DNA from: Myxococcales bacterium | Lineage (GTDB): Bacteria > Myxococcota_A > UBA9042 > JABWCM01 > BTVJ01 | DNA length: 64,000 nucleotides | Direction: 5' to 3' | Assembly (NCBI GenBank): GCA_045863395.1 | Contig: BTVJ01000001.1 | Location: 66,406-130,405 of the forward strand | In this document: positions 14,515-47,493 of the stretch, in pieces | Layout: each line of letters begins with the position of its first letter | How positions within the stretch are numbered: the first letter of the stretch is position 1 | Notes under the pieces: generated by a model | The model's database searches: none | The model's input: the letters and a program-made list of their open reading frames with translations, nothing else | Told to the model about the DNA's origin: nothing | Position numbers and translations under genes: made by a program

Positions 14515-14573
14515 GGGAGGGAAGTGTGGGGGGCGGGAGGGGCTACGTCAACTCCGGGACAGTCCCCAACAGC

Positions 14574-16568: not shown

Positions 16569-16723
16569 GATCCTTCCTCCTTGCGATTGCGGGTCTCAGC
16601 CACCCCGTCCCTTCCGCACGCGGCTCCACCTCGTCGAGGGATCTCTCCATCACCGGGGAATTTTCGCGCGCCGATGCCACCGTACTCCCGACCGGCGCGG
16701 CGCACAACGGGGAGCCAGCCGGA

Positions 16724-30852: not shown

Positions 30853-32835
30853 CTAGGGCTCACCGCTCACGATGATCCCGCCGGTCACGGTCACAGGGAG
30901 GGAGAATGCGTCCGCGTCGGCCGCGGCGACGCCGTCCAATGTAACCAGAACGGGGGCCGACGCGGGAGCGGGGGAGAGGAGCTCGAAGCGCGCACGGAAG
31001 ACGACTGGATCGCCGACCAGCGCGCCCGCCTCGTTGTACCAGGCCTCGGTGAGGGGCGTGTGGGGAGCCCCGGGGTGCACGATGATGGCCGCGCCGCTGC
31101 CAGACCACCCCTCGAAGGTCGTCGGAGCAATGCTCACCTGGTGACCCGTGGAGAGGGGAAGGGCCCCCTGCCCCGCGACCACCTGGTCGAAGCAGCCCAC
31201 TCCCTCGAAGCACAGCTCGTCGAAGAACCCGATGATGCGGGCGCGCTCCTTCGGGTAGTCCATCACCAGCTCCAGCGCGGTGGCGGGAGGGGCGCCCGAG
31301 CTGACGGCCGCGAGGCGCACGGGGCAATCGATCTGATCGAGTGCATCCCCTGTCATGGCGCACGCGGCAGCGGCGATGGAGGTCGCGGCATCACCGACCA
31401 CGATCTTCTGCTCGGAGACCACGGCCGGGATCGACTCGGCCGCCGCGTTGGCCACCACCACGTTGGAGAGGGTCACCGGGTCCGTACCATCGACCTTCCG
31501 CTTGAAGACGGCCTGTACGAATTGCGGGTCTCCCTGGATGGTCCCCTCGGGATCCAAGTACGCATCGGAGATGGGCGCCGTGGGGTCCGAGATGTTGGCG
31601 ATCACCACCGAGCCCTTGCCCGCCCAGGCGGCGGCGTCGCCCGGCGACAAGCTCACCGAGTGTCCCGATGGCCACAGAGGAACAGGGGGCGTGGACATGA
31701 GCTGGCAGGGGCCCCCGATGCAGGACTCGTCCTCGAACCGAACGAACGCGATGCGGTTCGCGTCGTACAGCACGGTCATCTGGAGCGCGGCCGGTAGAGC
31801 GACGGATTGGCCGATTCGGACCAGGCGGAAGGGGCAGACGACCTCCGCGTCTGCCGCGCCCGTGACCAGACAGATGGGCTCGCCGAGCGGGGGAACACAC
31901 TCCGGGTCGGGTGTGCCGGAGCAGACCCCCTGCGAGCACACGTCTCCGAGGGAGCACGGGTCTCCGTCGTCGCACGGAGCCGTATTGGGAGTACCGACGC
32001 AGCCGCCGTCCACGCAGGCGTCATCCGTACATGGGTCATTGTCGTTGCAGGCCAGCGCGGGGCCAGGGGTGCAGATGGTGCCGGCGCAGGTCCCGCTGCC
32101 CGTGCAAGGGTTGCCGTCGTCACAAGGCTGCTCGTCCCGAACGACCAGCTCACAGGCGTCGCCGTTGCACGCCTCCAACTGGCACGGGCCAAGAACCGCG
32201 GGCGACACAAGCTTCCCGGTGCAGTCGGAGTCGGTCTTGCAGAGCAGGATGTTCTTCTGCTCGCACCGGTTGTTGGCGCACACCTCACCGTCTCCACACT
32301 CGGCGGCAGTGAGGCAGCAGCCTGCCACCGCCTCGTAGCTGCACAGCCCCTCCTCGCAGGCCTCTGTGCTGCACGGGTTCTTGTCCGCGCACTCCCCATC
32401 GGTGGTGCAGGCGGACACGACGGAGAACGTCACGGAGTCCTTGGAGCCGGAGCCCTCGTAGGCGCTCCCATCCCCCTTGACCGCCTGGGCCCCAAGGACG
32501 TGCAGCCCGGGCTCGGTGACAATGACGGTCCCCGTCAACGCGCGAAGGGTCATCGCGGAGGCACCGTCGAGGGACAGGGCGACGCCGTCGCCCCCGGCCG
32601 CAAGGGAGATGCCCTGGACCTCCAAGACCACCGGGACGCCAGCGGCGGCGACCGACAGCTCGAAGGCCTCGTCGTCCATCGGTCGGACGAAGGAGACGAC
32701 CACCGAGCTGGCGCTCGTGGCGTCCCCCGCGTCGGCCGAATCGGAGACCGTTGCGTCAGAGCAGCCGGTCAGGGCGACGCACCCGAAAAGTATGGCGACC
32801 AGGTGTCGCCGCCCGGACCAAAGCGGGTCGCGCAT
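30853..32835 (-). CDS. Secreted Cys-rich repeat lipoprotein (660 aa): Ig-like N-domain, a few Cys repeats, then two tandem copies of the shared ~160-aa C-terminal domain.
   Basis: True start is ATG 32835 (MRDPLWSGRRHLVAILFGCVALTGC, lipobox). It overlaps the upstream stop (TGATG). The ORF-track N-terminal extension to 33183 is Arg-rich junk. Two domain copies contain SGHSVSLSP..GKGSVVIANISDPTAPI and STGHQVSIAPT..GSGAAIIVHPGAPHTPL. Confidence 0.75.
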   Translation of the reverse strand: MRDPLWSGRRHLVAILFGCVALTGCSDATVSDSADAGDATSASSVVVSFVRPMDDEAFELSVAAAGVPVVLEVQGISLAAGGDGVALSLDGASAMTLRALTGTVIVTEPGLHVLGAQAVKGDGSAYEGSGSKDSVTFSVVSACTTDGECADKNPCSTEACEEGLCSYEAVAGCCLTAAECGDGEVCANNRCEQKNILLCKTDSDCTGKLVSPAVLGPCQLEACNGDACELVVRDEQPCDDGNPCTGSGTCAGTICTPGPALACNDNDPCTDDACVDGGCVGTPNTAPCDDGDPCSLGDVCSQGVCSGTPDPECVPPLGEPICLVTGAADAEVVCPFRLVRIGQSVALPAALQMTVLYDANRIAFVRFEDESCIGGPCQLMSTPPVPLWPSGHSVSLSPGDAAAWAGKGSVVIANISDPTAPISDAYLDPEGTIQGDPQFVQAVFKRKVDGTDPVTLSNVVVANAAAESIPAVVSEQKIVVGDAATSIAAAACAMTGDALDQIDCPVRLAAVSSGAPPATALELVMDYPKERARIIGFFDELCFEGVGCFDQVVAGQGALPLSTGHQVSIAPTTFEGWSGSGAAIIVHPGAPHTPLTEAWYNEAGALVGDPVVFRARFELLSPAPASAPVLVTLDGVAAADADAFSLPVTVTGGIIVSGEP

Positions 32836-35800
32836 CACGGCGAGGTCTTGATCACAAGGTTGAGGATCTCCACCGGCAGACCGGTCGCAGACGCGTCGGA
32901 GGCGACCACGTTGTCCATCGTCACCTCGACCGGCGTTGACGCGGACACGGCCTCCGCCAGGGTGAACACCGCGGTGAACACGATGTCGTCGTCCACGACG
33001 ACCCCGTTGTCGAAGTACCCCGTGGCCAGCGGTGCCGTCGGATCGCTGGAGTTGGAGAGAACCACCGACCCGCCGGTCACCCAGCTCCCGAGGGCGGGGC
33101 TCAGCGACACCGCGTGACCCGACTGGAGCGAGGAGAAGTTGGTCGGGATGTCCCACGGAACGCAGACGGTCGGGACGAAGCACTTCTCTCCGTCATTGAA
33201 GTGGCTGATGACCGCCTTCGTGCCGTCGTAGTGCATGTTGAACTGGAGCGCCGTCGGGACGGGGGCACCAATCGACGAGCGGGCCAGGCGAATCGGGCAC
33301 TCCACGGTCTCGCCCTGGTCGCCGGAGAGCAGGCACGTCAGTCCGGCCTGGGGATCCGTACAGGCCTCGTAGGTCGGGCCAGAGCACACCCCGCCCGTGC
33401 ACGCGTCGGGTACCGTGCACTGCTCACCGTCGTCGCACGGAGCCCCGTCGGCGGCCGCGACGCCGCACAGGCCCGTCGCCGGGTTGCATGCGTCCACCGT
33501 GCAGGGATCACCGTCGTCGGCGCATGTGGTGGTCGTCCCACCGCCGCAGGTGCCGCCAACGCACGTCGTGCCGGTCGTACAGGGGTTGCCGTCGTCGCAG
33601 GCTCCGCCGTCAGCCGTCGGAAGCCCGCAGGAACCGGTGAGCGGGTTGCAGACGTCCTGGGTGCAAGCGCTGCCATCGTCCGCGCATGTCACCGCGCTGC
33701 CCACGCAGGCGCCGCCAGAGCAGGCATCACCCGTCGTGCAGAGGTCGCCGTCGTCGCAGCTCGTCCCCGAGGCGTTGGCTGCGACGCACGCTCCGGCAAA
33801 GCACACGTCACCCGTCGTGCATGCGTCACCATCGTCGCAGAGGGTGCCATCGGGCGCCAGAACGCCGCACAGCCCAGTGACCGCGTCGCACAGGTCGAGG
33901 ACGCACGGGTTGCCCTGGGGCTCGCAGGTGGCCCCAGCTCCGGTGCAGACACCGTTGAGACAGGCGTCACCCGAGGTGCAGGCCTCCCCGTCCGTGCAGG
34001 GATTCCCGTTCGCGGCGTTGAGGCCGCACGCTCCAGACACGGGATTGCACACGTCGACCGTGCAGGTGTTGTCGTCGGTCCCGCACGTGACGAGGCTCCC
34101 CGAGCAAACGCCGGCCGTGCAGGTCGTCAGGTTGGTGCACGGGCTCCCGTCCTCGCAGAGGGTCCCATCGACGAGGGCGACGCCGCATGCCCCGGTCTGC
34201 GGGTTGCAGACGTCGGTCGTGCAGGGGTTGCCATCGCTGCCACAGGACTTGGGAGTCCCACCGCACACCCCGCCCGTGCACATGTCGGCTGTGGTGCAGA
34301 GATCCCCGTCGCTGCAGGCGGTCCCATTGGCGACGGCCGAGCCCGAGCAGGTGCCCATCGAGCAGGTGTCACCGGCGGTGCAGGCGTTCTCGTCGTCACA
34401 CGGCGAGCCGTTGGGGACCGCCAGGCCAGTGCATACGCCCTGCATGCACAGGTCGTTGCCGGAGCAGCCGTTCCCGTCGTCGCAGACTGTGCCGTCGGAG
34501 ACCGTCTCCGACACGCACACGCCGTCGAGGCAGGAGTCGGTCGTGCACGGGTTCCCGTCATCACAGGCGGAGCCGTTGGCTGCGGGCACGCCGCACTGAC
34601 CCTGCTCGTTGCAGGAGTCCAGGGTGCAGGGGTTGTCGTCGTCCGGACAGATCACGGGCGCCGCCGAGCAGGTACCGCCGATGCACTGATCGGCGATGGT
34701 GCATGAGTCACCATCGCTGCACGCGGTCCCGTCGGTGACGGGCACGCCACACACACCCGTACCCGCGTCGCAGGTATCGGCCGTACAGGGATTGCCGTCA
34801 TCGGCGCAGCCCACCACGGCGCCAGCGCAGACCCCGGCGACGCAGACGTCACCGGTCGAGCAGGCCGCGGCATCGTCGCAGGACGAACCGTCCTCCGCGA
34901 GCACGCCGCAGCCGCCCGTCGCAGGGTTGCAGACGTCGCTGGTGCACGGGTTGCCGTCGCTGGCACAGGTCTTCTCCAGGCCCACGCAGGTGCCGGCGGA
35001 GCAGGCGTCCGCGATGGTGCAGGAGTCCTCGTCGTCGCAGGCGGTCCCGTCGGCGAGCGCCGTGGCCTCGCACGTACCGCTGGCGCAGGAGCCGACACTG
35101 GACGTGCACGGGTTCCCATCGTCGCAGGTGGAGCCATCAGCGAGCGGGGTCCCCGCGCACAGGCCACCGGAGCACGTGTCGCCCGTGGTGCACGCCTCCT
35201 CGTCGTCGCACGAGGCGCCATCCTGGTTGCCCGTGACGGTGCAGGAACCTGCCTGGCACGCCTCGATGACGCACGGGCCACCCTCGTCGCAGGGCGTCCC
35301 GTTGACAACTGCTACGCCACACGCGCCACTCGATGGGTCGCAGGCATCCGTGGTGCACGGGTTCCCGTCATCGGCGCAGGTCTTGGGCGTGCCGCCACAG
35401 ACGCCGCCCGAGCAGGTGTCGAGCACCGTACACACATCGCCGTCGTCGCAGGCGATGCCGTCGGCGGCGGGAGCGCCGCAGACCCCCGTCCCCGGGTTGC
35501 AGACGTCAGACGTGCACGGGTCGCCGTCGTCGGCGCACGCGACGGGCGTGCCCTGGCAGGCGCCGGCCGCGCAGGCATCGCCGGTGGTGCAGGGGTTGCC
35601 GTCATCGCAGGCCGTGCCGTTTGCGGCGGGCAGCCCGCAGGCGCCGCTGCCGGTGTTGCAGGCCTCGACGGTACAAGGGTTGCTGTCGTCGGGGCACTCG
35701 GTCGCCGTACCGGCGCACTCCGCGGACACACAGGCGTCATTGACGGTGCACGCCGCCCCATCCGAGCAGACCGCCCCGTCCTCCACCGCGATGCCGCAGA

Positions 35801-38800
35801 GGCCAGACGCGGGATTGCAGGTGTCCGTCGTGCAGGCGTTCCCGTCACTGGAGCACGTCACCGCCACGGCCCCGCAGGCGCCACCCAGACAGACGTCGCT
35901 CACCGTGCACAGGTCACCGTCGCTGCACCCCGAGCCGTCGGGGAGACCCACTCCGCAGGTTCCGTTCGCCGGGTTGCACTGGTCGGTCGTGCATGGATTT
36001 GCGTCGTCGTCGCAGGTGACGGACGTGCCGGCGCAGGTCCCCCCGGAGCACGCGTCCAGGTAGGTGCAGGTGCTCCCGTCTGAGCATGGGCTACCGTTGG
36101 TGACAGCCACCCCGCAGGCTCCGGTCGCCCCATTGCAGACATCGTCCGTGCATGGGTTGCCGTCGTTGGCGCAGGACTTGAGCGTCCCGGTGCAGGCCCC
36201 TGCCACGCACGCATCGGCGACGGTACACAGGTCCCCGTCGTCGCAGCTCGTGCCGTTGGGAACCGCCTGGCCGACGCAGGCTCCACCCACGCACGCATCG
36301 TTGAGGGTGCACGTGTCGCCGTCATCACACCCGCCTGCGTAGAGCGGGGTGCCGAGGCAGGACCCGCCAAGGCATTGATCGCCGCTGGTGCAGGCGTTGT
36401 CGTCGTCGCAGCCCGCACCATCGGGCCCTGGGGCCTCGAAAGCGCAGATGCCGGCAGAGCAGGACCACGTGGAGCAGGAGTCACCCCCGGCGCAGGGGGT
36501 CAGCTCTGCTACGGGGACCCCGCAGGTGCCGGTGGCGGGGTTGCAGGCGTCGGTCGTGCACTCGTTGCCGTCGTCGCCGCACACGACCGCGACGCCATTG
36601 CAGGTGCCAGCGACGCAGGCGTCGCCGCTCGTGCATGCATTGGAGTCGTTGCACGACGTACCGTTGGGCCTCGCCACGCCGCACGCGCCCGTCGCCGCGT
36701 CGCAGACGTCGTCTGTGCAGGGGTTGCCGTCATTGGCGCAGCTCTTGGGCGCGCCGCCGCACGTGCCCGCAACGCACAGATCGCCTACCGTGCACAGATC
36801 TCCGTCATCGCACGCCGTGCCGTCTTCCACCGCGACACCGCACAGGCCGGTCACCGAGTCGCACACGTCCGTCGTGCATGCGTTGCCGTCGTCGCCGCAG
36901 GTCTTGGGAGCGCCCGAGCAAGTGCCGGAGGAGCATGTGTCTCCCAACGTGCAGGCGTCTCCGTCACTACACACGGTGCCGTTGGGGACCACCGTGCCGG
37001 CGCAGGCACCCGCGACGCAGGTGTCGTTGATGGTGCAGGGGTTGCCGTCATCGCACGAGCCCAGGATGGGCGCGCCGGGCTGGCAGGCGCCGCCCTGGCA
37101 CGTGTCACCGCCCGTGCAGGCGTCCCCGTCGCTGCAGGGAGCGCCATTCGCGAGCGGCGCGCCGACGCACACCCCCGCCTGGCAAGCGTCCGTCGTGCAG
37201 GTGTTGCCGTCGTCACAGCTCGTACCGTTCGGCAGCGCCACGCCGCACGCCCCCGTCGCGGGGTTGCACGCGTCCTGGGTGCAGGAGTTTCCGTCGTCGC
37301 CGCAGGTCTTCAGCGTCCCGGAGCAGACCCCGGCCTGGCACAGGTCATTCAGGGTGCACGGGTTCCCGTCATCGCAGGCCGTCCCGTTCGAGCCGGGCGC
37401 AGTGCAGTCCCCCGGCACACACGACGCCGTACACTCGGCCGAGCAACCCGCTTCGGCGCCGCCACAGGACCCCGAGCTGCACGCATCCAGGTACGTGCAG
37501 ATCTCGCCGTCGTCACAGGCCGTCCCGTCGGCGGCCGCAACGCCGCAGGCGCCGGTCATCGGGTTGCAGGCGTCCACGGTGCAGCCGTTGCCATCGTCTG
37601 CGCAGGTCTTGGGCGTGCCGAGGCAGGCGCCGCCCAAGCACTGGTCGCCAGTCGTGCACAGGTCTCCGTCGGTGCAGGACGTCCCGTTGGACACCACGGT
37701 ACCGGCGCAGGCGCCGCCCGAGCACACGTCACCCGCGGTGCAAGGGTTGCCGTCGTCGCAGGGGTTACCGTTGCCAACGCCCGTACCGATGCACGCGCCC
37801 CCGGCGCACATGTCGCCCGTCGTGCAGGCGTCGCCGTCATCGCAGGACGTCCCGTTCGCCAGGGGCGTGCTGATGCAGACACCACCGACGCACGCATCTG
37901 CCGTGCACGGGTTGCCGTCGTCACAAGGACCGCCGTTCGGCACCGGGAGCCCACAGGTCCCTCCCTGGCAGGTCTGGGACGTGCACGCGTCGCCGTCGTC
38001 AGGACAGATCACCGCCAGGCCGCCGCAGGTGCCGCCGGTGCAGGCGTCGCTGGACGTACACAGATCCCCATCGTCGCAGGTCGTGCCGTTGGGAGCCGGG
38101 GCCCCGCAGGAGCCGCTGACGCAGGCGTCAACCGTGCACGGGTCGCCATCGGGGGCACAGAAGACCGAGCCACCCTGACACGCTCCGCTGAGGCACACGT
38201 CGCCCGTGGTGCACGCGTCCCCATCGCTGCAAGATGAGCCATCCCCGGCCCACTGCCCGCATGACCCGGTCGACGCATTGCAGACATCTACTGTGCATGG
38301 GTTGCCGTCGTCTGCGCAGGTGAGGATCACGCCGCCACAGCTCCCGCCTTGGCACTGGTCGCTGTGAGTGCAAGCGTCCCCGTCGTTGCAGGACGCGCCA
38401 TTGGGCAGAGTTGCGCCGCCCCCACAGGTGCCGCCAGTGCAGAGCTCGCCCACGGTGCAGGAGTTGGAGTCGTCGCAGGGGGAGCCGTCGGGGACACCCG
38501 AGCCACCGCCACAGACGCCCGCCGTGCAGGTCTCTCCCGTGGTACACAGGTTGTCGTCGTCACACGGAGATCCGTTGGCGACGGGTGCGCCGACGCACAC
38601 GCCGTTGGAGCAGGAGTCCGCGGTGCATGCGTCGCCATCGTCGCAGGCCGTGCCGTTGGCAGCCGGCGGGTAGCACTCTCCGGTCGCCGGATCGCACTCG
38701 TCTGCCGTGCACTCGTGCCCGTCGTCGGCGCAGGTCTTCGGGGCACCACCACACACCCCGGCGGTGCACACGTCCGCGACGGTGCACTGGTCGCCGTCGT

Positions 38801-41354
38801 CACAGGCGGTACCGTTCGGCACCGCCACGCCGCACGCTCCCGTGGCGAGGTCGCACACGTCCACGGTGCAGGGATCGCCGTCGCTGGCACAGGTCACTGC
38901 GGTCCCGGCGCACACGCCTGCGGAGCAGGTGTCTCCAGACGTACAGACATTGCCGTCGTCGCACGCCGCACCCTCCGCAGCCGGCGCCCCACAGGTACCG
39001 GTCGCCCCGTTGCAGATGTCGCTCGTGCAAGGGTTACCGTCGTCACCGCAGGTGACAGGGGTCCCGGCGCAAGCGCCGGCGCTGCACGCATCCCCCGTGG
39101 TGCAGAGGTTGGCGTCGCTGCATACGGTCCCGTTCGGAAGCGCGAGTCCGCAGCCGCCTGTCGCGGGATCACAGACGTCGCTGGTGCAGGGGTTGCCGTC
39201 GTCCGCGCACGCCTTGGGGGCACCATGGCAGGCGCCAGCCTGACACACGTCGGACACGGTGCAGACATCACCGTCGCTGCACGCCGTGCCGTTGGCAACG
39301 GCTGTGCCAGCGCAGGATCCGCCGGTGCAGGCGTCTCCTGCGGTGCAGGGGTTGCCGTCGTCGCAAGCGCCGCCCTCACCGACCCCAGCACCCGCACACA
39401 CGCCGGCCGTGCAGGCGTCGTTCGCCGTGCAGGCATCACCGTCGTTGCAGGTGGAGCCATTCGGGAGCGCCGTGCCAGCGCACACGCCAGCGCCGCACAC
39501 GTCGAGGGCCGTGCAGGAGTTGCCGTCGTCACAGGAGGTCCCGTTGGGCGCCGGCACACCACAGGCGCCCGTGGCCGGATTGCACAGGTCGAGGGTGCAC
39601 GGATCGCCGTCAGACCCGCAGCCGAGAGCAACGCCCTGGCACACCCCAGCGTTGCACACGTCATTGACCGTGCAGAGGTTCCCGTCGTCGCAGAGGGCCC
39701 CGTTCAGGGCCGTGACGCCACATGCGCCGGTCTGCGCGTCGCAGGCGTCCGCGGTGCAGGGGTTGCCGTCATCGCCGCACGTCGCCGGGATGCCCTGGCA
39801 CGCGCCTCCGATGCACACGTCTCCCGAGGTACAGGCGTCCGCGTCCGTGCAGGTCGTCCCGTCCCCGGCCGCTACACCGCAGGCTCCGGTGTCCGGGTTG
39901 CACACGTCAGTGGTGCAGGCGTTGCCGTCGCTGGGGCAGGACTTTGCGGTACCGGCGCAAGCTCCAGCGGTGCACAGGTCGAGGACGGTGCAGAGGTCTC
40001 CGTCGTCGCAGGCCGTGCCGTTGACCACGGGCGAGCCAGCACAGAGGCCGGACTGGCACACGTCCCCCTGCGTGCACCCGTTGTCGTCGTCGCACGGAGT
40101 CCCGTTGGGGTTCACCCCACCGCCACTGCACGTGCCAGCCTGGCAGGTGTCGGTGGTCGTGCACGAGTTGCCGTCGTCGCAGGACGTCCCGTTCGCCACC
40201 GGCGCACCCGCGCACCCCCCGGCGCCGCACGCGTCGCTGGCAGTGCACGGGTTGTCGTCATCGCAGAGCGTCCCCGGCGCGGCGGCCCCCCCGCACGCGC
40301 CGGTCACGGCGTCGCAGGCGTCAACTGTGCACGGATCCCCATCGTCCGGGCAGGACTTCGGAACACCGGCGCACGCGCCCGCAGTGCAGGAGGTGAGCAG
40401 CGTACAGGGGTCACCGTCGTCGCACGCAGTGCCGTCCGCAGCTACCGAATTGCAGGCGCCCGTCGCCGGGTTGCACGTGTCCTGGGTGCAGGGGTCACCG
40501 TCATCGGAGCAGGTGGTCAGGGCGCCCACACACGCGCCGACCTGGCAGGTGTCGCCCGTGGTGCAGAGGTCCCCATCGTCACAGCCGGTCCCATTCGCAA
40601 ACGGGAAGCCGCACGTACCACTGGCGGGGTTGCACGCATCCAAGGTGCAGGGGTTCCCGTCGTCAGCGCACTGGACCTCGACGGCCTGACAGGTTCCGCC
40701 GACGCAGGTGTCCCCGGTCGTGCAGGTGTCGCCATCGTCGCAGGTCGCGCCCGACAGAGAGACCCACCCGGTGGGGTTGGTCCCCGGCACACACTTCTCG
40801 CAGGTGTTCGTTGGGTTCAGCGCATCAGCCGCGACGCAGTCGCCACCGATGGCGCAGCCGCCAGGACACGAGCAGGCGTTGATGGCGGTCGGGAAGGACA
40901 AGGGATCCAGCGGATCGGTCCCATTGGCGATCTCGCAGGTGTCCGGGTAGGTGTCCCCGTCATCGTCCTCGTCGCAGCCGTTGTGGAGGTCGTCCCGGTC
41001 CGGGTCCGCGACCGCGATGAGCCCGTTGATCCCCTCATCTGAGCTCAGCTTGTAGAGGCGCAGCAGGATGATGCGCTGGACGTCCGTGACGTCCAGCTTG
41101 CCGTCGCACTGAAGATCCGCGTCCGCGTCGCTCACCGCCTGGCAGACGGGATTGGGATCCCCCTGGGCCTGCGTCAGAACAGCGCCGATGTAGCAGTTGA
41201 TGTCGGCGACGTTGACCAGCTCGTCGAGGTTGATGTCTCCCGAGTGGAGAGGGAGCGGGGCCGCAGAAGCCGTCCCTACGCCGAGGGTCCCCGCCAGGAT
41301 CGCCGCCGCGGCGAGTGCCCTCCCCCACGTTGAACACCCACCGTCGGAGCTCAT
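32835..41354 (-). CDS. Giant (2839 aa) secreted repeat protein: signal peptide, dockerin-like Ca-binding pair, about 70 tandem 36-aa Cys repeats, then the shared C-terminal domain.
   Basis: ATG 41354 with GGGAGG 7 nt upstream. ATGA overlap with the upstream gene. Signal MSSDGGCSTWGRALAAAAILAGTLGVGTASAAP. Repeats of the form [48 protein letters not shown]. C-terminus SGHAVSLSP..GGSVVLSNSSDPTAPL..LVIKTSP. Confidence 0.8.
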   Translation of the reverse strand: MSSDGGCSTWGRALAAAAILAGTLGVGTASAAPLPLHSGDINLDELVNVADINCYIGAVLTQAQGDPNPVCQAVSDADADLQCDGKLDVTDVQRIILLRLYKLSSDEGINGLIAVADPDRDDLHNGCDEDDDGDTYPDTCEIANGTDPLDPLSFPTAINACSCPGGCAIGGDCVAADALNPTNTCEKCVPGTNPTGWVSLSGATCDDGDTCTTGDTCVGGTCQAVEVQCADDGNPCTLDACNPASGTCGFPFANGTGCDDGDLCTTGDTCQVGACVGALTTCSDDGDPCTQDTCNPATGACNSVAADGTACDDGDPCTLLTSCTAGACAGVPKSCPDDGDPCTVDACDAVTGACGGAAAPGTLCDDDNPCTASDACGAGGCAGAPVANGTSCDDGNSCTTTDTCQAGTCSGGGVNPNGTPCDDDNGCTQGDVCQSGLCAGSPVVNGTACDDGDLCTVLDLCTAGACAGTAKSCPSDGNACTTDVCNPDTGACGVAAGDGTTCTDADACTSGDVCIGGACQGIPATCGDDGNPCTADACDAQTGACGVTALNGALCDDGNLCTVNDVCNAGVCQGVALGCGSDGDPCTLDLCNPATGACGVPAPNGTSCDDGNSCTALDVCGAGVCAGTALPNGSTCNDGDACTANDACTAGVCAGAGVGEGGACDDGNPCTAGDACTGGSCAGTAVANGTACSDGDVCTVSDVCQAGACHGAPKACADDGNPCTSDVCDPATGGCGLALPNGTVCSDANLCTTGDACSAGACAGTPVTCGDDGNPCTSDICNGATGTCGAPAAEGAACDDGNVCTSGDTCSAGVCAGTAVTCASDGDPCTVDVCDLATGACGVAVPNGTACDDGDQCTVADVCTAGVCGGAPKTCADDGHECTADECDPATGECYPPAANGTACDDGDACTADSCSNGVCVGAPVANGSPCDDDNLCTTGETCTAGVCGGGSGVPDGSPCDDSNSCTVGELCTGGTCGGGATLPNGASCNDGDACTHSDQCQGGSCGGVILTCADDGNPCTVDVCNASTGSCGQWAGDGSSCSDGDACTTGDVCLSGACQGGSVFCAPDGDPCTVDACVSGSCGAPAPNGTTCDDGDLCTSSDACTGGTCGGLAVICPDDGDACTSQTCQGGTCGLPVPNGGPCDDGNPCTADACVGGVCISTPLANGTSCDDGDACTTGDMCAGGACIGTGVGNGNPCDDGNPCTAGDVCSGGACAGTVVSNGTSCTDGDLCTTGDQCLGGACLGTPKTCADDGNGCTVDACNPMTGACGVAAADGTACDDGEICTYLDACSSGSCGGAEAGCSAECTASCVPGDCTAPGSNGTACDDGNPCTLNDLCQAGVCSGTLKTCGDDGNSCTQDACNPATGACGVALPNGTSCDDGNTCTTDACQAGVCVGAPLANGAPCSDGDACTGGDTCQGGACQPGAPILGSCDDGNPCTINDTCVAGACAGTVVPNGTVCSDGDACTLGDTCSSGTCSGAPKTCGDDGNACTTDVCDSVTGLCGVAVEDGTACDDGDLCTVGDLCVAGTCGGAPKSCANDGNPCTDDVCDAATGACGVARPNGTSCNDSNACTSGDACVAGTCNGVAVVCGDDGNECTTDACNPATGTCGVPVAELTPCAGGDSCSTWSCSAGICAFEAPGPDGAGCDDDNACTSGDQCLGGSCLGTPLYAGGCDDGDTCTLNDACVGGACVGQAVPNGTSCDDGDLCTVADACVAGACTGTLKSCANDGNPCTDDVCNGATGACGVAVTNGSPCSDGSTCTYLDACSGGTCAGTSVTCDDDANPCTTDQCNPANGTCGVGLPDGSGCSDGDLCTVSDVCLGGACGAVAVTCSSDGNACTTDTCNPASGLCGIAVEDGAVCSDGAACTVNDACVSAECAGTATECPDDSNPCTVEACNTGSGACGLPAANGTACDDGNPCTTGDACAAGACQGTPVACADDGDPCTSDVCNPGTGVCGAPAADGIACDDGDVCTVLDTCSGGVCGGTPKTCADDGNPCTTDACDPSSGACGVAVVNGTPCDEGGPCVIEACQAGSCTVTGNQDGASCDDEEACTTGDTCSGGLCAGTPLADGSTCDDGNPCTSSVGSCASGTCEATALADGTACDDEDSCTIADACSAGTCVGLEKTCASDGNPCTSDVCNPATGGCGVLAEDGSSCDDAAACSTGDVCVAGVCAGAVVGCADDGNPCTADTCDAGTGVCGVPVTDGTACSDGDSCTIADQCIGGTCSAAPVICPDDDNPCTLDSCNEQGQCGVPAANGSACDDGNPCTTDSCLDGVCVSETVSDGTVCDDGNGCSGNDLCMQGVCTGLAVPNGSPCDDENACTAGDTCSMGTCSGSAVANGTACSDGDLCTTADMCTGGVCGGTPKSCGSDGNPCTTDVCNPQTGACGVALVDGTLCEDGSPCTNLTTCTAGVCSGSLVTCGTDDNTCTVDVCNPVSGACGLNAANGNPCTDGEACTSGDACLNGVCTGAGATCEPQGNPCVLDLCDAVTGLCGVLAPDGTLCDDGDACTTGDVCFAGACVAANASGTSCDDGDLCTTGDACSGGACVGSAVTCADDGSACTQDVCNPLTGSCGLPTADGGACDDGNPCTTGTTCVGGTCGGGTTTTCADDGDPCTVDACNPATGLCGVAAADGAPCDDGEQCTVPDACTGGVCSGPTYEACTDPQAGLTCLLSGDQGETVECPIRLARSSIGAPVPTALQFNMHYDGTKAVISHFNDGEKCFVPTVCVPWDIPTNFSSLQSGHAVSLSPALGSWVTGGSVVLSNSSDPTAPLATGYFDNGVVVDDDIVFTAVFTLAEAVSASTPVEVTMDNVVASDASATGLPVEILNLVIKTSP
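33375..40772 (-). repeat. In-frame array of about 70 degenerate 108-bp (36-aa) Cys-rich repeat units inside the giant gene.
   Basis: Periodic recurrence of the CDDG[ND]xCT..D.C..(A/S/G/V)TG.CG motif across residues ~195-2660 of the 2839-aa product. Repeats are diverged at the DNA level, not identical. Confidence 0.7.
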
Positions 41355-42007
41355 CGGGCGCCTCCCGTCACGATGACGCCAGCCTCGGTCCTCGCCGGGA
41401 CTGCCGCCGCGTCCTGATCCGCCGCCACCAGCGCCGTCGCCGTCACGACGACGGGGGAGGACGCCGGCGCCTCACCGGAGAGCCGGAACCGTGCGGTGGC
41501 CACGACCGCGTCACCCTCGACCGCGCCGCTCCGAAGGACGGCCTGCGTGATCGGCGTCGTCGGGCTCGTGAAGTGGGCGATGACCAGCGACCCCTTGCCA
41601 GCCCAGGCCTCCGGCTGGTCCGGGCTCTGGAGCACGCTGTGCCCCGTGCGCGCGACGACCGGCTCCTCGGCAGTCAAACGACGCTCGGCGGCTCCGGCAT
41701 CGAACAGCCCGATGAAGGTGGCGCGGGCGCTGTCATACCCGAGCGTGAGCTGGAGCGCGCGAGCGGCGACCGTGTCCGGCACCGCGGCGAGGCGCACCGG
41801 GCAGGACACCACGGCGCCGGCCGCACCGGAGAGCTGACAGATGGCGGCGCCGGACAGGGGCGCCACAGCCGCAGGGCTCGTAGGAACGACGGCCTCCGTG
41901 GCCGTCGCCTCCGTGGGCTTCTCAGGCGCCTTGGTGGTCTGCTGGGTCCCCTCGCAGCCCACGATGGTGACGCCGAACACGAGAGACAGTGCGATGAGCT
42001 TCTTCAT
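41351..42007 (-). CDS. Small lipoprotein (218 aa) made up only of the ~160-aa domain shared by the four giant proteins.
   Basis: ATG 42007 with GGGAGG 5 nt upstream. Lipobox VTIVGCEG, then a Thr/Ala/Pro linker. Domain signature ..CPVRLAAV..ARTGHSVLQSPDQPEAWAGKGSLVIAHFTSPTTPI..VIVTGGAR. Its stop overlaps the giant gene's start. Confidence 0.7.
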   Translation of the reverse strand: MKKLIALSLVFGVTIVGCEGTQQTTKAPEKPTEATATEAVVPTSPAAVAPLSGAAICQLSGAAGAVVSCPVRLAAVPDTVAARALQLTLGYDSARATFIGLFDAGAAERRLTAEEPVVARTGHSVLQSPDQPEAWAGKGSLVIAHFTSPTTPITQAVLRSGAVEGDAVVATARFRLSGEAPASSPVVVTATALVAADQDAAAVPARTEAGVIVTGGAR

Positions 42008-42035: not shown

Positions 42036-45000
42036 CTACTGCGCCCAGGTGACGATGATTGCGTTGATGATCTCGGAGACCAGGGTGGCTGCCTGCCCGT
42101 CCGCGCTTACCAGGTTGGTCAGCTCCACCTGGGCCGGGTTGCCGGCCGCGACGTCGCTGAGGAGCTTGAACTTGACGCGCACCATCTCGGGTTCGCCCTC
42201 GATGGCGCCCGCCTCGATGTACGCGTTGCTCAACGGCACGGTGGGATCTGACGTGTTGACGATGACCACCGCTCCGGATCCCTTCCAGTCCGCTACCTTC
42301 GTTGGCGCGATGGACACGGAGTGCCCCGTCGAGAGCGGCGTCGAGCCAGGCCCGGTGACGGGTGTCTCGAAGCACCCGAAGCCCGGGAAGCACAGCTCGT
42401 CATAGAAGTTGTCGAGCTGAAGGACGGTCTCGTCGTAGTCCACCGCGAACTCGATGCCCGTCGCGGGCGGATCCGCCTCGGTCTCGCGCGCAACGCGAAC
42501 CGAGCAGGTGACGATCTCGCCCGTCGATCCTGACAGGTCGCAGACGAAGCCCGGCGGGGCCCCGCACCCGGGGTGGGGACCACCCGCAACGCAGACGCCG
42601 TCCTGGCACTGGTCGTCTTGGGTGCAGGGGTTGCCGTCGCTGCACGGGAGCGCGCTCAGCGGGATGTGGTAGCACCCGTCCAAGGCATCACAGGCATCTG
42701 CGGTGCACGCATTGCCATCGTCACAGAGCTGGTTCTCTGCCAGGTTGACGCACGTCCCCTGTGCCGTGCAGGAGTCGACGGTGCAGGCGATGCCGTCGTC
42801 ACAGTTCACCAGTGGCCCTGCGGTGCATTTGACCCCGGCGCACGTGTCGTTGGTGGTGCAGGGGTTCCCGTCGTCGCACGCAGCGCCCGGCGCCTTCACA
42901 TACTGCTGGCAGCCCGCCACCAGGTCGCAGATGTCGTCGGTGCAGGAGTTCCCGTCGCTGCACGCCAGATCGTCCGGCACGAACACGCACCCAAGGACCG
43001 GGTCGCAGGTGTTGAGCGTGCAGGCGACCCCATCTGCGCAGTTCAACGACGTCCCGGGCTTGCAGCCGCCCGCCACGCACTTCTCGATGCCGGTGCAGAC
43101 GCTGCCGTCGTCGCAGTCCGCGTCGGTGGTGCAGTCGAGGCTCTCGACCAGGCACTCGGGGCTGCACCCATCGTTGGGCAGCTCGTTGCCGTCATCGCAG
43201 TCCTCCCCGGGATCGGTGAAGCCGTTGCCGCACTCCTCGTTGGACGTGCACGACGCGTTGCACCCGTCGTCGGAGAGCTCGTTGCCGTCGTCGCAGGCCT
43301 CACCGGGGTCCACAAAGCCGTTGCCACACTCCTCGTTGGAGGTACACGACGCGTTGCAGCCGTCGCCGGAGTCGTTGTTGCCGTCGTCGCACACCTCGCC
43401 GCACGCGAGGTCCTCGGTGCCGTCGCCGCAGTAGGGCGCGTCACCGGCCTGACAATAGAGACTGCCGGCGTCGCAGGTCTCCGCCCCATTGCAGGGGTCC
43501 CCGTCATCGCAGAGGGCCGCGGCCGCCGGGATGCACCGATCCGTGGGCGCTGACACGATGAGGCCGTCCTGTACCCAAGTGTGCAGCTCCGCGCCCGCCG
43601 TGCTCCAGGACGTGACGTTGTGCAGGTAGACGAACACGGGCGCCTCGACCGGGATGTCGATCTTCGTCGACATATGGAGGGTGAGGATCTCCGGGTCGCC
43701 CTGGACGGCGCCACCGGCGAGCCACGCCTCCGTCAGTGGCGACGCGGGGTCGCTGACGTTGGCCAGATGCACGTCCACGTTGCCGAGCCAGTTCGCGGGG
43801 CTCGCGGGCGTCAAGCTCGCGGTGTGCCCGCTCGGAGAGAGCTTGTTCGGCGGAACCGCCGCAGCGACGCAGCTCGCCCCGAAGCACACGGTGTCGGTCA
43901 TGCCCTGCATCTTGAGGCTGGCCGACTCGAACTGGAGCACGAAGTGGAGGGTGCCGGGCAGTGGCGTCCCATCATCGAAGCGGGCGTGCTTGATCGGACA
44001 GGTGATCGACGTGCCCGTCGGCCCCGCCACGGCGCACAGGGCCGCTGCGTCCAACGCACAGCTCGGGAGGAGGGCGCCGGGGGTACAGGCGCCAGCCGCG
44101 CACACGTCGCCCTGGGTGCAGGGGTCCTTGTCGTCGCAGGGCGCAGTGTTGAACGCGGTCGTGCACGCGCCGGTGACCGCGTCGCATGCGTCGTCGGTGC
44201 AGGGATCCCCGTCGTTGCAGACCTTGGCGACGCCGCCACACGCCCCGTCCTTGCACGTGTCCTGGGAGGTGCACGCGTTGCCGTCGTTGCAGGGGGCGGT
44301 GTTGGGCGTGTAGATGCATGCGCCGTTCGTCGGGTTGCATGCGTCGTTCGTGCAGGGGTTGCCGTCGTCGCAGGCGGTCGAGGTCCCGGGCGTGCACTCC
44401 CCTGCGGAGCAGACGTCGTCGGTCGTGCAGGGGTCGTGGTCATCGCAGGGGGCCGTGTTGGGCGCCGTGGTGCACCCCCCGGTCGCAGGATCGCAGGAGT
44501 CGTCCGTACACGGATCGTCGTCGTCGCACACCACGAGGGGCACCCCGAAGCACGCACCCGTTGCAGGGTCGCAGGCCTCATCGGTGCAGGCGTCGCCGTC
44601 GTCGCAGAGGACCGCCGCGAGGTGGGCGCACGCCCCGGTCGCAGGATCGCAGGCGTCCGTGGTGCACAGGTTGCCGTCGTCGCAGTTCAGGGTGATGGGC
44701 GTGTTGGAGCAGTTGCCCGTCGCCGGGTTGCACGAATCGGTGGTGCAGAGGCTTCCGTCGTCGCAGTCCTTCTCGGGACCGGCCGTGCAGACGCCGGCCT
44801 GGCACGCGTCCCCCACGGTGCAGCCGTCCCCGTCGTCGCAGGCCAGGCCCGCGGCCGCATCGCTGAGCACGCACTGCCCGCTCGACGGGTTGCACGCCAC
44901 GGTCTTGCAGGCGGGCGGCGCCGCGCAGTCGACGATGGTCGCCGTGTCGAGCACGCAGGAGCCATCCTGGCACTTCAGGGTCCCGTTGCAGAGGTTGCCG

Positions 45001-45815
45001 TCCTCCTTCGAGGCGCAGTCGGCCGTCGTGTTGCACTCCCCGCAGATATCGGGGCCCGCCTTGCAGGCGCCCCCCTGGCACTGGTCGGGCCCCGTGCAGG
45101 CGTCGCCGTCGTCGCAGGCCGCCACGTTGTTCGTGTAGACGCACCCCAGGTCCGGGTTGCAGGCGTCGTCAGTGCAGCCATTGTCGTCGTTGCAGGCCTT
45201 GGGTTTGCCAGCGACGCACGCGCCGGCGTCGCAGTGGTCGTCCTCGGTGCAGGCGTCGCCGTCGTCGCACACCGTGGTGGTGGGCTCGTTCACGACCCGG
45301 CAGGTGCCCTCGTCCTTGTCACAAGACGCGGTCTGGCAGGGCCCCGACGCCTTGCTCGCACAGTCCGCGTCGGTGGTGCACTCCGGCGCATCTGCCTTCT
45401 TCTTGACGACGACGGTCACCTCGTCGACGTAGTCGGCGCCGTCAAAGGGCACGCCCTCACTGCGCAGGGCCTGCACCCCAAGAGTGTGGGATCCGAGCGG
45501 GACGGCGGCGAAGGTGTAGGTGTGGCCCGTCGCCAGCGTGGCCACCTCGACGCCGTCAAGGGACAGCGACAGCAGGGGCCCTCCGTCGGCCAGCTCCAGC
45601 CCGAGCACCTGGAGCTCGGCGACGATGTCGACGGTGTCGGTGGTGGTCTCGAAGACCTCCCCCGCCGAGGGAGAGAGGAAGGAGACGGAGACGGTGCCAC
45701 CGCCTGCGTCGGCGTCACTCGTGGTCTGCACCACCGAGTCGTCCGAACAGGCGGCGAGCGCCAGCAGCGCGCTCGCCCAAGCCGACATCCATGTCATCCT
45801 CGCCCGACCGATCAT
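42036..45815 (-). CDS. Giant secreted Cys-rich repeat lipoprotein (1259 aa): Ig-like N-domain, Cys repeats, one internal and one terminal copy of the shared C-terminal domain.
   Basis: True start is ATG 45815 ([26 protein letters not shown]) with GGGAGG 7 nt upstream. The ORF-track extension to 45980 has no RBS. Contains a [18 protein letters not shown]../[16 protein letters not shown] block. Terminal domain ..[41 protein letters not shown]. Confidence 0.75.
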
Positions 45816-46798: not shown

Positions 46799-47269
46799 AT
46801 GGCGTGGCTTCGTCACCCGGCGCTGCTCTGGGCGAGCAGGCTCCTGCTCGGCGCCGTCTTCCTCTACGCGGCCTGGTACAAGATCACCGACCTGCCGGGG
46901 TTCGCCGCCAACATCAACAACTACGGCATGGTGCCCATCGGGCTGCTCCCCCTGTTCGCCACGGTGCTCGCGGGCGTGGAGGTCGTGACCGGCCTCGCCC
47001 TCGTGACGGGGGTGTGGCGCAAGGGGGCGGCGCTCGTCGTGTCGGCGATGCTCCTGATGTTCATCGTCGCCATCGGCGTCGCTTACGCTCGCGGCAAGAG
47101 CATCGACTGCGGCTGCTTCACGGCCGAGATGAGCGCAGAGAAGGCCGGAGAGGTGCGCGCACACATGCTGCGCCGCATCGTGGAGGATGTCGGCATGCTC
47201 GCGCTGGGCCTCAACCTGTTCGTTCAGGACCTCACCTCCCCTCGGGTCCCGGAGCCATCCCTTGTCTGA
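46799..47269 (+). CDS. MauE/DoxX-family redox-associated membrane protein.
   Basis: 156 aa with 4 predicted TM helices. The CGCF motif (SIDCGCFTAE) is typical of the MauE family. This family is commonly adjacent to rhodanese genes, from established knowledge. Confidence 0.7.
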   Translation: MAWLRHPALLWASRLLLGAVFLYAAWYKITDLPGFAANINNYGMVPIGLLPLFATVLAGVEVVTGLALVTGVWRKGAALVVSAMLLMFIVAIGVAYARGKSIDCGCFTAEMSAEKAGEVRAHMLRRIVEDVGMLALGLNLFVQDLTSPRVPEPSLV

Positions 47270-47483
47270 CGACACCCTGCTCGAGCTGCTGGTCACCCCA
47301 CACACCCACGAGCGCCTCCGCCCGGGCACCCCCGCGGAGCTGCGCCAGGCCCAAGGGATGTGGGCAGAGCGCTCCCCGGAGCCCCTCCCGGCCATCCTCG
47401 TCACTGCGGATGGGTCCCGGGCCTGGCCGATCCTCGACGGCATCCCGGACCTCCTCTCCGAGCACGCCCTCACCCTGCGCTGA
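47262..47483 (+). CDS. Trm112-like (DUF343) small protein, Cys-less variant.
   Basis: TTG 47262 with GGAG 7 nt upstream. Overlaps the MauE 3' end by 8 nt. Pattern LLELLVTPHTHERL....AWPILDGIPDLLSEHA resembles Trm112/YcaR (LLEILxCP....YPIxDGIPxLL) with the Zn-Cys residues replaced. Confidence 0.45.
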   Translation: MSDDTLLELLVTPHTHERLRPGTPAELRQAQGMWAERSPEPLPAILVTADGSRAWPILDGIPDLLSEHALTLR

Positions 47484-47493
47484 GTCCGCCCCA

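What the first reader, a model, noticed from the sequence alone, without database searches (positions are those of the whole stretch)
41046..41243. Dockerin-like Ca-binding loop pair at the N-terminus of the 2839-aa giant
Residues ~38-103 read HSGDINLDELVNVADINCYIGAVL..(20 aa)..DADADLQCDGKLDVTDVQRIILLRL. These are two D-x-[ND]-x-D-[GE]-x-[LV]-[ND/D]-x-x-D-x-x-x-[IL] segments followed by hydrophobic helices, the hallmark of type-I dockerin (F-hand) modules. Combined with the shared beta-rich C-terminal domain in neighbouring genes, a cohesin-dockerin-like assembly is conceivable. This is speculative.
Basis: inference. Interest (0 to 1): 0.6.

Follow-up and report, generated by a model that had tools for sequence, protein, structure and literature searches.

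The report
Dockerin on a myxobacterial giant protein
The start of a 2839-residue secreted protein from an uncultured myxobacterium carries a genuine but divergent dockerin module, and five genes of the same cluster (the giant included) carry its usual partner, the cohesin module, so the cluster probably plugs giant cysteine-rich surface proteins onto lipid-anchored proteins rather than building a cellulose-degrading machine.

Summary
Window 41046-41243 (minus strand) encodes residues 38-103 of a 2839-aa ORF, with two 12-residue Ca-loop/helix repeats (D40-D51, D80-D91). It is a dockerin homologue. Alone it misses Pfam's cut-off (18.4 vs 22.9 bits). A profile of 71 relatives hits only dockerins among solved structures (best E 5e-8). 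60 of those 71 match Pfam Dockerin_1. An AlphaFold model (pLDDT 95) has dockerins as its top 28 PDB matches.

The "beta-rich shared domain" is a cohesin. There are seven copies in five adjacent genes. One passes Pfam Cohesin, and its model (pLDDT 95) has cohesins as its top 50 PDB matches.

Four of the five proteins look like lipoproteins. Only the giant has a dockerin. Its gene overlaps start/stop with the cohesin lipoprotein genes on both sides.

Most likely, by inference only, the dockerin docks Ca-dependently onto a lipoprotein cohesin. The giant's own C-terminal cohesin might extend a chain.

It is not a cellulosome and cannot be called "type I". It belongs to a three-cysteine, N-terminal dockerin subfamily with a TSP3-like extension, so far found only in metagenome data (relatives' contigs labelled Myxococcota; the adjacent gene deposited under Myxococcales as "hypothetical"). 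Non-cellulosomal cohesin-dockerin pairs are known, so this is a new variant of moderate interest.

The parts
32835..41354 (-). Giant gene, 2839 aa. Order of parts: signal peptide, dockerin, TSP3-like extension, a long array of CDDGxxCT-type cysteine-rich repeats, C-terminal cohesin-like domain.
   Evidence: GC3 0.85. Whole-protein Pfam shows only Dicty_CTDC (15 stretches) and DUF7107.
41262..41354 (-). Signal peptide, residues 1-31 (…AILAGTLGVGTASA|APLPL). It looks like a signal peptidase I site and has no lipobox.
   Evidence: Read directly from the translation; inference, no predictor was run.
41046..41243 (-). Dockerin module, residues 38-103. Two F-hand repeats, with the family's near-invariant C54, C71 and C83.
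   Evidence: Pfam 14-18.4 bits, below the cut-off; family profile vs PDB, all hits dockerins, best 5e-8; close subfamily only: dockerin 4fl4_A, E 0.0056; AF2 pLDDT 95.4; top 28 PDB matches are dockerins; column counts.
41202..41237 (-). Ca-binding loop 1, D40-I-N42-L-D44-E-L-V-N48-V-A-D51.
   Evidence: Among 71 relatives: D40 in 69, position 3 N47/T15/D7, D44 in 55, position 9 N44/D12, D51 in 71.
41082..41117 (-). Ca-binding loop 2, D80-L-Q82-C83-D84-G-K-L-D88-V-T-D91.
   Evidence: Among 71 relatives: D80 in 71, position 3 N33/Q18/D15, C83 in 69, D84 in 59, G85 in 58, D91 in 71.
40902..41006 (-). TSP3-like acidic extension, residues 117-151 (DPDRDDLHNGCDEDDDGDTYPDTCEIANGTDPLDP). Probably a third Ca site.
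   Evidence: Weak TSP3_bac match here (15.6 bits). The pattern is invariant in 14 close homologues. Homologue P0008 passes the Pfam TSP3_bac cut-off (29.3 > 25).
32841..33344 (-). C-terminal cohesin-like domain of the giant, residues ~2671-2838.
   Evidence: 32% identical to the Pfam-positive cohesin of the 218-aa protein. Located with the window's own domain profile (by construction).
41351..42007 (-). 218-aa lipoprotein (lipobox IVGC) with a single cohesin domain at about 41360-41848. Its stop overlaps the giant's start (ATGA).
   Evidence: Pfam Cohesin 27.6/28.7 bits > 24.1. AF2 pLDDT 95.4 and top 50 PDB matches all cohesins. Overlap seen. Deposited as NCBI GMV38353.1 'hypothetical protein'.
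30853..32835 (-). 660-aa lipoprotein (MRDPLW…LTGC|SD) with two cohesin-like domains (about 31390-31881 and 30859-31374). Its ATG overlaps the giant's TGA (TGATG).
42036..45815 (-). ~1259-aa lipoprotein (…LALAAC|SDD) with cysteine-rich repeats and two cohesin-like domains (about 43545-44048 and 42042-42551).
   Evidence: (Dicty_CTDC; Cohesin 20 bits, below the cut-off).
27017..30589 (-). 1190-aa probable lipoprotein (LALGC|VE, a relaxed lipobox) with cysteine-rich repeats and a C-terminal cohesin-like domain (about 27026-27532).

Best explanation
Residues 38-103 of the giant fold as a dockerin: two Ca2+-binding loop-helix (F-hand) repeats packed as an antiparallel helix pair. The module sits directly after a cleavable signal peptide. 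It belongs to a divergent subfamily with three conserved cysteines and a TSP3-like acidic extension. That subfamily has so far turned up only in metagenome data: relatives sit on contigs labelled Myxococcota, and the adjacent gene is deposited under Myxococcales.

The beta-rich domain shared by the giant's C-terminus and by four neighbouring proteins is a cohesin. Those four proteins look like lipoproteins.

Proposed mechanism (inferred, not shown): after export, the Ca-loaded dockerin inserts its helix face onto the beta-sheet face of a cohesin carried by a lipid-anchored neighbour. The first candidate is the 218-aa single-cohesin lipoprotein, whose gene overlaps the giant's start codon. This would tether the 2800-residue cysteine-rich repeat protein to the cell envelope. 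Because the giant also ends in a cohesin, further dockerin-bearing copies could add head-to-tail. The lipoproteins, which have cohesins but no dockerin, would act as anchors. The system would be structural or adhesive, not a multi-enzyme cellulosome.
For: Dockerin identity:
- Family profile A2 against all PDB sequences gives 20 hits at E<=0.01, every one a dockerin, best 4fl4_A at 5e-8.
- The close subfamily alone (A4, 14 sequences) gives one hit, the dockerin 4fl4_A, E 0.0056.
- 60 of 71 relatives match Pfam Dockerin_1 (best 9e-10), against 12 for the best EF-hand family.
- The AF2 model has pLDDT 95.4 and three helices. PDB matches 1-28 are all dockerins, with query-normalised TM 0.40-0.71.
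- The Ca-ligand columns at positions 1, 5 and 12 are conserved in 55-71 of 71 relatives.

Cohesin identity:
- Pfam Cohesin is above the cut-off for the 218-aa protein.
- The AF2 model has pLDDT 95.4 and the top 50 PDB matches are all cohesins, best 5nrk_A at 9e-6.
- Seven mutually alignable copies lie in five genes.

Partnership:
- There is one dockerin and seven cohesins in one co-directional cluster. Stop/start overlaps occur on both sides of the giant (ATGA at 41351-41354; TGATG at 32835).
- 18 of 88 dockerin-family hits carry this same cohesin type in the same polypeptide, including 11 of the 17 closest.
- The pairing is seen again in four related loci.
- The closest homologue, P0002, also carries two classical Pfam cohesins at 89 bits.
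Against: - The sequence itself fails Pfam's Dockerin_1 gathering score (14-18.4 vs 22.9 bits).
- Loop 1 has Glu at position 6 where Gly is usual, and loop 2 has Gln at position 3, so full Ca occupancy is not assured.
- Foldseek E-values for the 78-residue dockerin model are weak (0.08-1), although the ranking is uniform.
- Only 3 of the 7 window cohesin-like domains (9 of 25 once relatives are added) reach Pfam Cohesin even at lenient E-values, and the cohesin profile finds no significant PDB sequence match.
- The stand-alone cohesin lipoprotein next to the dockerin gene is not conserved in the four related loci examined.
- No binding, Ca dependence, localisation or expression data exist.
- In a diderm it is not known how, or whether, these proteins reach the cell surface. 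No secretion genes are in the window.
- Many non-cellulosomal dockerin-like modules have no demonstrated partner.
Confidence: 0.6

Rival explanations
1. Orphan dockerin-like Ca module. The segment is a dockerin homologue but does not bind cohesins. It serves as a Ca2+-stabilised N-terminal cap or spacer, together with the adjacent TSP3-like Ca site, that rigidifies or folds the giant repeat protein. The neighbouring cohesin-fold domains do something else, for example bind glycans or cell-surface ligands.
For: - A Ca-binding TSP3-like stretch follows directly and is co-conserved.
- Dockerin and TSP3 repeats co-occur in giant proteins of other phyla without a proven cohesin partner (bioRxiv 10.1101/2023.11.21.568195).
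- Non-cellulosomal modules often lack known partners (PMC9012536 citing Peer et al. 2009).
- Most of the 88 family hits (70) carry no cohesin-like domain in the same chain.
Against: - This cohesin type is strongly enriched in the closest dockerin relatives (11 of 17).
- The genes are arranged with start/stop overlaps.
- The cohesin fold has few known roles other than dockerin binding; this last point is my own knowledge.
Confidence: 0.2
2. Self-assembly only. The dockerin's true partner is the giant's own C-terminal cohesin, either in cis as an autoinhibited loop or in trans as head-to-tail polymers. The lipoprotein cohesins would serve other, unseen dockerin proteins encoded elsewhere in the genome.
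For: - N-terminal dockerin plus C-terminal cohesin on the same chain is the conserved feature across relatives.
- The stand-alone cohesin lipoprotein neighbour is not conserved.
Against: - The ATGA and TGATG overlaps with the cohesin lipoprotein genes in this window.
- The seven cohesins are only 25-42% identical to the reference copy (the 218-aa protein's domain), so specificities cannot be read from sequence.
- Only 64 kb of the genome is visible.
Confidence: 0.15
3. Chance resemblance: an acidic, D/N-rich stretch that merely looks like EF-hand loops, with no dockerin domain present.
For: Pfam Dockerin_1 is below its gathering score. The single-sequence PDB hit is only E 0.73.
Against: Profile, fold, conservation and uniqueness in the window all point the other way.
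Confidence: 0.02

Closest known systems
Cellulosomal dockerins of Clostridia (Pfam PF00404; e.g. PDB 4fl4_A, 1ohz_B, 2ccl_B, 6kgf_D)
   Same: - Two ~22-residue loop-helix repeats with D/N ligands at positions 1, 3, 5, 9 and 12.
- Three-helix fold.
- Best sequence-profile and fold matches.
   Different: - N-terminal rather than C-terminal.
- Carried by a non-enzymatic giant repeat protein.
- Three near-invariant cysteines (helix 1, linker, loop 2).
- 40-residue loop-to-loop spacing and a fused TSP3-like extension.
- V-A / V-T at positions 10-11.
- Below the Pfam cut-off on its own sequence.
Anchoring scaffoldins of cellulosomes (cohesin + SLH proteins such as OlpA/OlpC/SdbA; PDB 3ul4, 4dh2, 2bm3 among the fold matches)
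   Same: Small cell-bound proteins with one or two cohesins that receive a dockerin from a large secreted protein. The cohesin fold is matched.
   Different: - The anchor here is inferred to be an N-terminal lipid (lipobox), not SLH domains or sortase.
- The host is a diderm (a Myxococcales MAG).
- The cohesins carry an invariant Cys pair and an SGH motif.
Non-cellulosomal cohesin/dockerin modules (Peer et al. 2009, as summarised in PMC9012536; Archaeoglobus fulgidus cohesin 2xdh; Clostridium perfringens NagH/NagJ 2ozn; ANME archaeal dockerin+multi-cohesin proteins)
   Same: Cohesin and dockerin outside cellulose degradation. Proteins combine one dockerin with several cohesins. 2xdh, 2ozn, 2jh2 and 2vo8 are among the fold matches.
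   Different: A different lineage, different cargo (cysteine-rich Dicty_CTDC-like repeats), the cysteine-bearing subfamily, and apparent lipoprotein anchoring.
Dockerin-type giant proteins of Omnitrophota (bioRxiv 10.1101/2023.11.21.568195)
   Same: Giant extracellular proteins that combine dockerin/EF-hand repeats with bacterial TSP3 repeats, proposed to act in attachment.
   Different: Those proteins have many dockerin repeats along chains of 30,000 aa or more, and no paired cohesin operon is described. Here there is one dockerin, one TSP3-like unit and seven neighbouring cohesins.

Membership tests
Dockerin (F-hand pair; Pfam PF00404 Dockerin_1) | Two tandem ~22-residue segments, each a 12-residue Ca-binding loop (ligands at positions 1, 3, 5, 9, 12) followed by a helix | tested here: met
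   D40/N42/D44/N48/D51 and D80/Q82/D84/D88/D91, each followed by a predicted helix. Deviations: E at position 6 of loop 1, Q at position 3 of loop 2.
Dockerin (F-hand pair; Pfam PF00404 Dockerin_1) | Significant sequence similarity to experimentally characterised dockerins | tested here: met
   Family profile vs PDB: 20 hits, all dockerins, best 5e-8. Close-subfamily profile: only hit is a dockerin, E 0.0056. Single sequence alone: E 0.73.
Dockerin (F-hand pair; Pfam PF00404 Dockerin_1) | Score at or above Pfam's gathering cut-off (22.9 bits) for the sequence itself | tested here: inconclusive
   14.0, 15.7 and 18.4 bits depending on the excised length; E 0.0025 at best; covers profile positions 2-53 of 57. 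60 of 71 relatives match at E<=0.1, best 9e-10. This is an operational threshold, not a structural criterion.
Dockerin (F-hand pair; Pfam PF00404 Dockerin_1) | Three-helix dockerin fold | tested here: met
   AF2 pLDDT 95.4, pTM 0.85. Foldseek PDB ranks 1-28 are all dockerins, TMq 0.40-0.71. This is a prediction, not an experiment.
Dockerin (F-hand pair; Pfam PF00404 Dockerin_1) | Ca2+-dependent folding and binding to a cohesin | not testable with these tools
   N-terminal, on a non-enzymatic giant. The repeats are about 27% identical to each other by eye. Positions 10-11 are V49-A50 and V89-T90.
Cohesin (Pfam PF00963) | Pfam gathering score and the beta-sandwich cohesin fold | tested here: met
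   218-aa protein: 27.6/28.7 bits > 24.1. AF2 pLDDT 95.4; top 50 PDB matches all cohesins. The other six domains are assigned through 25-42% identity to it. Only 3 of the 7 reach Pfam at E<=1.
Cellulosome (multi-enzyme cohesin-dockerin complex) | Dockerin-bearing glycoside hydrolases, and a scaffoldin with a carbohydrate-binding module | tested here: not met
   The only dockerin in 64 kb is on the giant. No GH or CBM family was found on the cluster proteins. The adjacent esterase-like protein has no dockerin.

The most novel reading that the evidence does not exclude
The cluster encodes a self-extending extracellular fibre or matrix. Lipoprotein cohesins nucleate it at the outer membrane. Giant 'dockerin(N)-cysteine-rich repeats-cohesin(C)' subunits then daisy-chain head-to-tail through a disulfide-braced, Ca-dependent cohesin-dockerin pair private to this myxobacterial lineage. 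That would be a new use of the cellulosome connector, as a polymerisation device for cell-surface architecture, adhesion or predation in a diderm.
Probability: 0.2. Interest if true: 0.7.

Novelty: new variant of a known kind. Interest (0 to 1): 0.45.

Why it matters
Routine annotation does not see these modules. The giant scores only for Dicty_CTDC and DUF7107, and the cohesin lipoprotein is deposited as 'hypothetical protein'.

Recognising a matched dockerin and seven cohesins in one cluster with overlapping genes turns an uninterpretable set of cysteine-rich giants into a concrete hypothesis that can be tested by cloning: which cohesin binds the dockerin, and is binding Ca-dependent.

It also extends cohesin-dockerin systems to a lipoprotein-anchored, diderm setting in Myxococcales. 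It defines a three-cysteine dockerin subfamily of at least 88 cluster representatives. That subfamily could supply orthogonal, possibly disulfide-stabilised connector pairs for protein engineering.

Tried and rejected
- Word-indexed homologue search with the first 201 residues found only one error-ridden fragment (P0001). The exhaustive HMMER scan was needed.
- Single-sequence PDB search was not significant (E 0.73, although the top hit was a dockerin).
- NCBIfam gave nothing for the giant, the 218-aa protein or the 660-aa protein.
With A4 the tool chose the TSP3-like peptide pattern and returned only three loci that match residues 84-124, not the dockerin.
- Cohesin profiles A1 and A3 against PDB sequences were not significant. 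Fold comparison was needed instead.
- Peer et al. 2009 (PMC3035643) is not held, so it is cited only through PMC9012536.
- A generic EF-hand sensor was considered and rejected: EF-hand Pfam families match at most 12 of 71 relatives, against 60 of 71 for Dockerin_1.
- The C-terminal beta domain as a sorting signal was considered and rejected: it also occurs internally, in tandem, and as the whole mature part of a lipoprotein.
- A conserved 'cohesin lipoprotein next to dockerin gene' synteny was considered. It is not seen in L009-L012.

Full report
**1. The observation**

The window is about 70% G+C. ORF 32835..41354 on the minus strand is 2839 aa. Its third-position GC is 0.85, like the other real genes of the window. 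Coordinates 41046-41243 correspond exactly to residues 38-103.

The protein begins with a typical signal peptide (…GVGTASA|APLPL; read by eye). Then come GDINLDELVNVADINCYIGAVL, a 15-residue spacer and ADLQCDGKLDVTDVQRIILLRL. In dockerin register the loops are:
- D40-x-N42-x-D44-x-x-x-N48-x-x-D51
- D80-x-Q82-x-D84-G-x-x-D88-x-x-D91

A permissive loop regex matches only these two sites in the six-frame translation of all 64 kb. Four independent assemblies from other sequencing runs carry the region at 99.86% identity with an identical peptide. The minor corrections are a spacer of 15 rather than 20 aa, Q rather than N/D at position 3 of loop 2, and E rather than G at position 6 of loop 1.

**2. 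Is it a dockerin?**

On its own the segment gives Pfam Dockerin_1 at 14.0-18.4 bits. The E-value is 0.0025 at best, and the match covers profile positions 2-53 of 57. This is below the gathering score of 22.9. The best single-sequence PDB hit is a dockerin, but only at E 0.73.

An exhaustive HMMER scan of 1.84 billion representatives found 88 relatives at E<=1e-3, 23 of them at E<=1e-10. Their consensus is GDxNxDGxxNVxDVQC…P.CL…ADLxCDGxxxVxDVQxxI.

I aligned 71 of them with the window sequence first (alignment A2).
- 60 of the 71 match Dockerin_1 at E<=0.1 (best 9e-10). The best EF-hand family is matched by 12.
- The A2 profile against all PDB sequences returns 20 hits at E<=0.01. All are dockerins: 4fl4_A at 5e-8, then 2y3n_B, 5lxv_B, 5nrm_B, 1ohz_B and others.
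- A profile of only the 14 closest sequences still returns one hit, the dockerin 4fl4_A, at E 0.0056.
- AlphaFold2 with A2 as alignment gives pLDDT 95.4 and pTM 0.85, with helices after each loop and a short linker helix.
- Foldseek ranks 1-28 against the PDB are all dockerins, with query-normalised TM of 0.40-0.71. The E-values are weak, as expected for 78 residues.
- Ligand positions 1, 5 and 12 of both loops are conserved in 55-71 of 71 sequences.

I conclude that it is a dockerin homologue with the dockerin fold. That conclusion is by homology and prediction only.

**3. What is special about it**

- The subfamily has three near-invariant cysteines: C54 three residues into helix 1, C71 in the linker and C83 at loop-2 position 4. 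They are present in 69-70 of 71 sequences.
- In the close relatives the module lies directly after the signal peptide. The exceptions are P0017, and P0032 further out, where it is C-terminal.
- It is followed by an invariant acidic pattern, D.D.D..HN.CD.DDD.D…D.CE…GT.PLD. In homologue P0008 this stretch passes Pfam's bacterial TSP3 repeat cut-off (29.3 > 25). The window's copy scores 15.6 bits.
- Recognition positions 10-11 are V-A and V-T.

None of this fits the 'type I' label. The criteria for that label are from my own knowledge of the C. thermocellum modules.

**4. The partner**

- once in a 218-aa protein (41351-42007)
- twice in a ~1259-aa protein (42036-45815)
- once at the giant's C-terminus
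- twice in a 660-aa protein (30853-32835)
- once in a 1190-aa protein (27017-30589)

The 218-aa protein passes Pfam Cohesin (27.6/28.7 bits > 24.1). Its AlphaFold model, built with an alignment of 25 such domains, has pLDDT 95.4. The top 50 PDB matches are all cohesins, best 5nrk_A at E 9e-6. They include the non-cellulosomal cohesins 2xdh and 2jh2. Sequence evidence for the other copies is weaker: 3 of 7 reach Pfam at E<=1, and profile searches against PDB are not significant. They are, however, 25-42% identical to the Pfam-positive copy.

The four non-giant proteins start with lipoboxes: IVGC, LAAC, LTGC, and a relaxed LALGC. These were read by eye and are an inference. The dockerin profile finds no second dockerin in the window.

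**5. Gene arrangement**

- The 218-aa gene's stop overlaps the giant's start (ATGA, 41351-41354).
- The giant's stop overlaps the ATG of the 660-aa gene (TGATG at 32835).
- The 1259-aa gene ends 28 nt upstream of the 218-aa gene.
- The 1190-aa gene overlaps a 769-aa esterase-like gene that has no dockerin.

Such overlaps indicate one operon and suggest coupled translation (established general knowledge).

**6. Relatives**

Of the 88 dockerin-family hits, 18 carry this same cohesin type in the same chain, including 11 of the 17 closest. Most of the rest are short fragments.
- Contigs of the closest relatives are labelled Myxococcota_JABWCM01.
- In another genome, two dockerin+cohesin genes of 953 and 1473 aa lie two genes apart.
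- The closest homologue, P0002 (67% identity), additionally holds two classical cohesins (89 bits) and a classical-looking dockerin. The lineage therefore clearly uses these connectors.
- A stand-alone cohesin lipoprotein next to the dockerin gene is not seen in those loci.
- The 218-aa protein is NCBI GMV38353.1, 'MAG: hypothetical protein [Myxococcales bacterium]'.

**7. Mechanism**

Shown: domain identities, by homology and predicted fold. Also shown are their co-occurrence and the gene overlaps.

Inferred:
- Ca-dependent docking of the giant's N-terminus onto a lipoprotein cohesin. The 218-aa protein is the first candidate.
- Tethering of the cysteine-rich repeat giant to the envelope.
- Possible head-to-tail extension through the giant's own C-terminal cohesin.

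No glycoside hydrolase, CBM or dockerin-bearing enzyme is present, so it is not a cellulosome. How these proteins would cross the outer membrane is unknown.

The rivals are an orphan Ca-stabilised cap, self-assembly only, and chance. They are weighed in their own section.

**8. Known context and novelty**

Non-cellulosomal cohesin and dockerin modules are documented across bacteria and archaea. Proteins with one dockerin plus several cohesins occur in ANME archaea (PMC9012536). Dockerin+TSP3 giant proteins are described in Omnitrophota (bioRxiv 10.1101/2023.11.21.568195).

In the held literature I found no natural lipoprotein-anchored cohesin and no cysteine-braced dockerin. That search was limited.

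I rate this a new variant of a known kind. It is moderately interesting, mainly because it is directly testable and invisible to routine annotation.

Noticed in passing
window 40902-41006 (giant residues 117-151): A TSP3-like acidic Ca-binding stretch (DPDRDDLHNGCDEDDDGDTYPDTCE…GTDPLDP) follows the dockerin. Its D/C pattern is invariant in 14 close homologues, and one homologue (P0008) passes Pfam TSP3_bac.
   Followed up: partly
giant residues C54, C71, C83 (window ~41193-41195, 41142-41144, 41106-41108): Three near-invariant cysteines in the dockerin subfamily, which is an odd number. About 14-20 more distant members add a fourth Cys 5-6 residues before loop 1. The disulfide pairing is unknown, because model coordinates could not be inspected.
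   Followed up: partly
the seven cohesin-like domains (e.g. window 41360-41848, 32841-33344): This cohesin subfamily has an invariant Cys pair near its N-terminus (C…SG..G..V.C), and most copies have an S-G-H motif, an invariant Trp and a further C..C pair. Classical cohesins are not known for these features (my own knowledge).
   Followed up: no
window 33360-40877 (giant) and the bodies of the 1190- and 1259-aa genes: A long array of CDDG(D/N)xCT-type cysteine-rich repeats (15 stretches reach Pfam Dicty_CTDC; also DUF7107/DUF4215 matches). Long antisense 'shadow' ORFs (e.g. 38349-41042 +, 897 aa) are artefacts of the high GC content.
   Followed up: partly
window 24720-27029 (-): A 769-aa esterase-like protein (Pfam Esterase, 31.5 bits) is the last gene of the cluster and overlaps the end of the 1190-aa gene by 13 nt. 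It has no dockerin or cohesin.
   Followed up: partly
window 46804-52818 (+): A 2004-aa protein with UvrA interaction and DNA-binding domains and ABC ATPase features, about twice the length I recall for a normal UvrA (my own knowledge). It looks like a fused or duplicated UvrA-like protein, divergently oriented from the cluster.
   Followed up: no
window 18246-21173 (+) and 22491-23924 (+): DabA (777 bits) and a Proton_antipo_M (DabB-like) gene: a DAB-type inorganic carbon uptake pair.
   Followed up: no
window 7326-9374 (-), 14577-16595 (-), 13255-14547 (-): Secreted-looking proteins with domains that are unusual in bacteria: an IgGFc_binding domain (198 bits) and three Kazal-type protease-inhibitor domains. 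Next to them is a NamZ exo-muramidase.
   Followed up: no
P0002 / locus L009 10001-16216: The closest homologue carries two flavours of connector in one chain. It has the Cys-type dockerin (N-terminus) with the Cys-type cohesin (C-terminus), and also two classical Pfam cohesins with a classical-looking dockerin (residues 1595-1650). This suggests two orthogonal specificities.
   Followed up: partly
L005 386-736: In the only word-index homologue (a contig with 0.22x coverage), loop 2 of the dockerin is broken by what look like two compensating frameshift errors. The alternative frame reads …SQCDGSIDD…, which restores the DLQCDG motif.
   Followed up: yes
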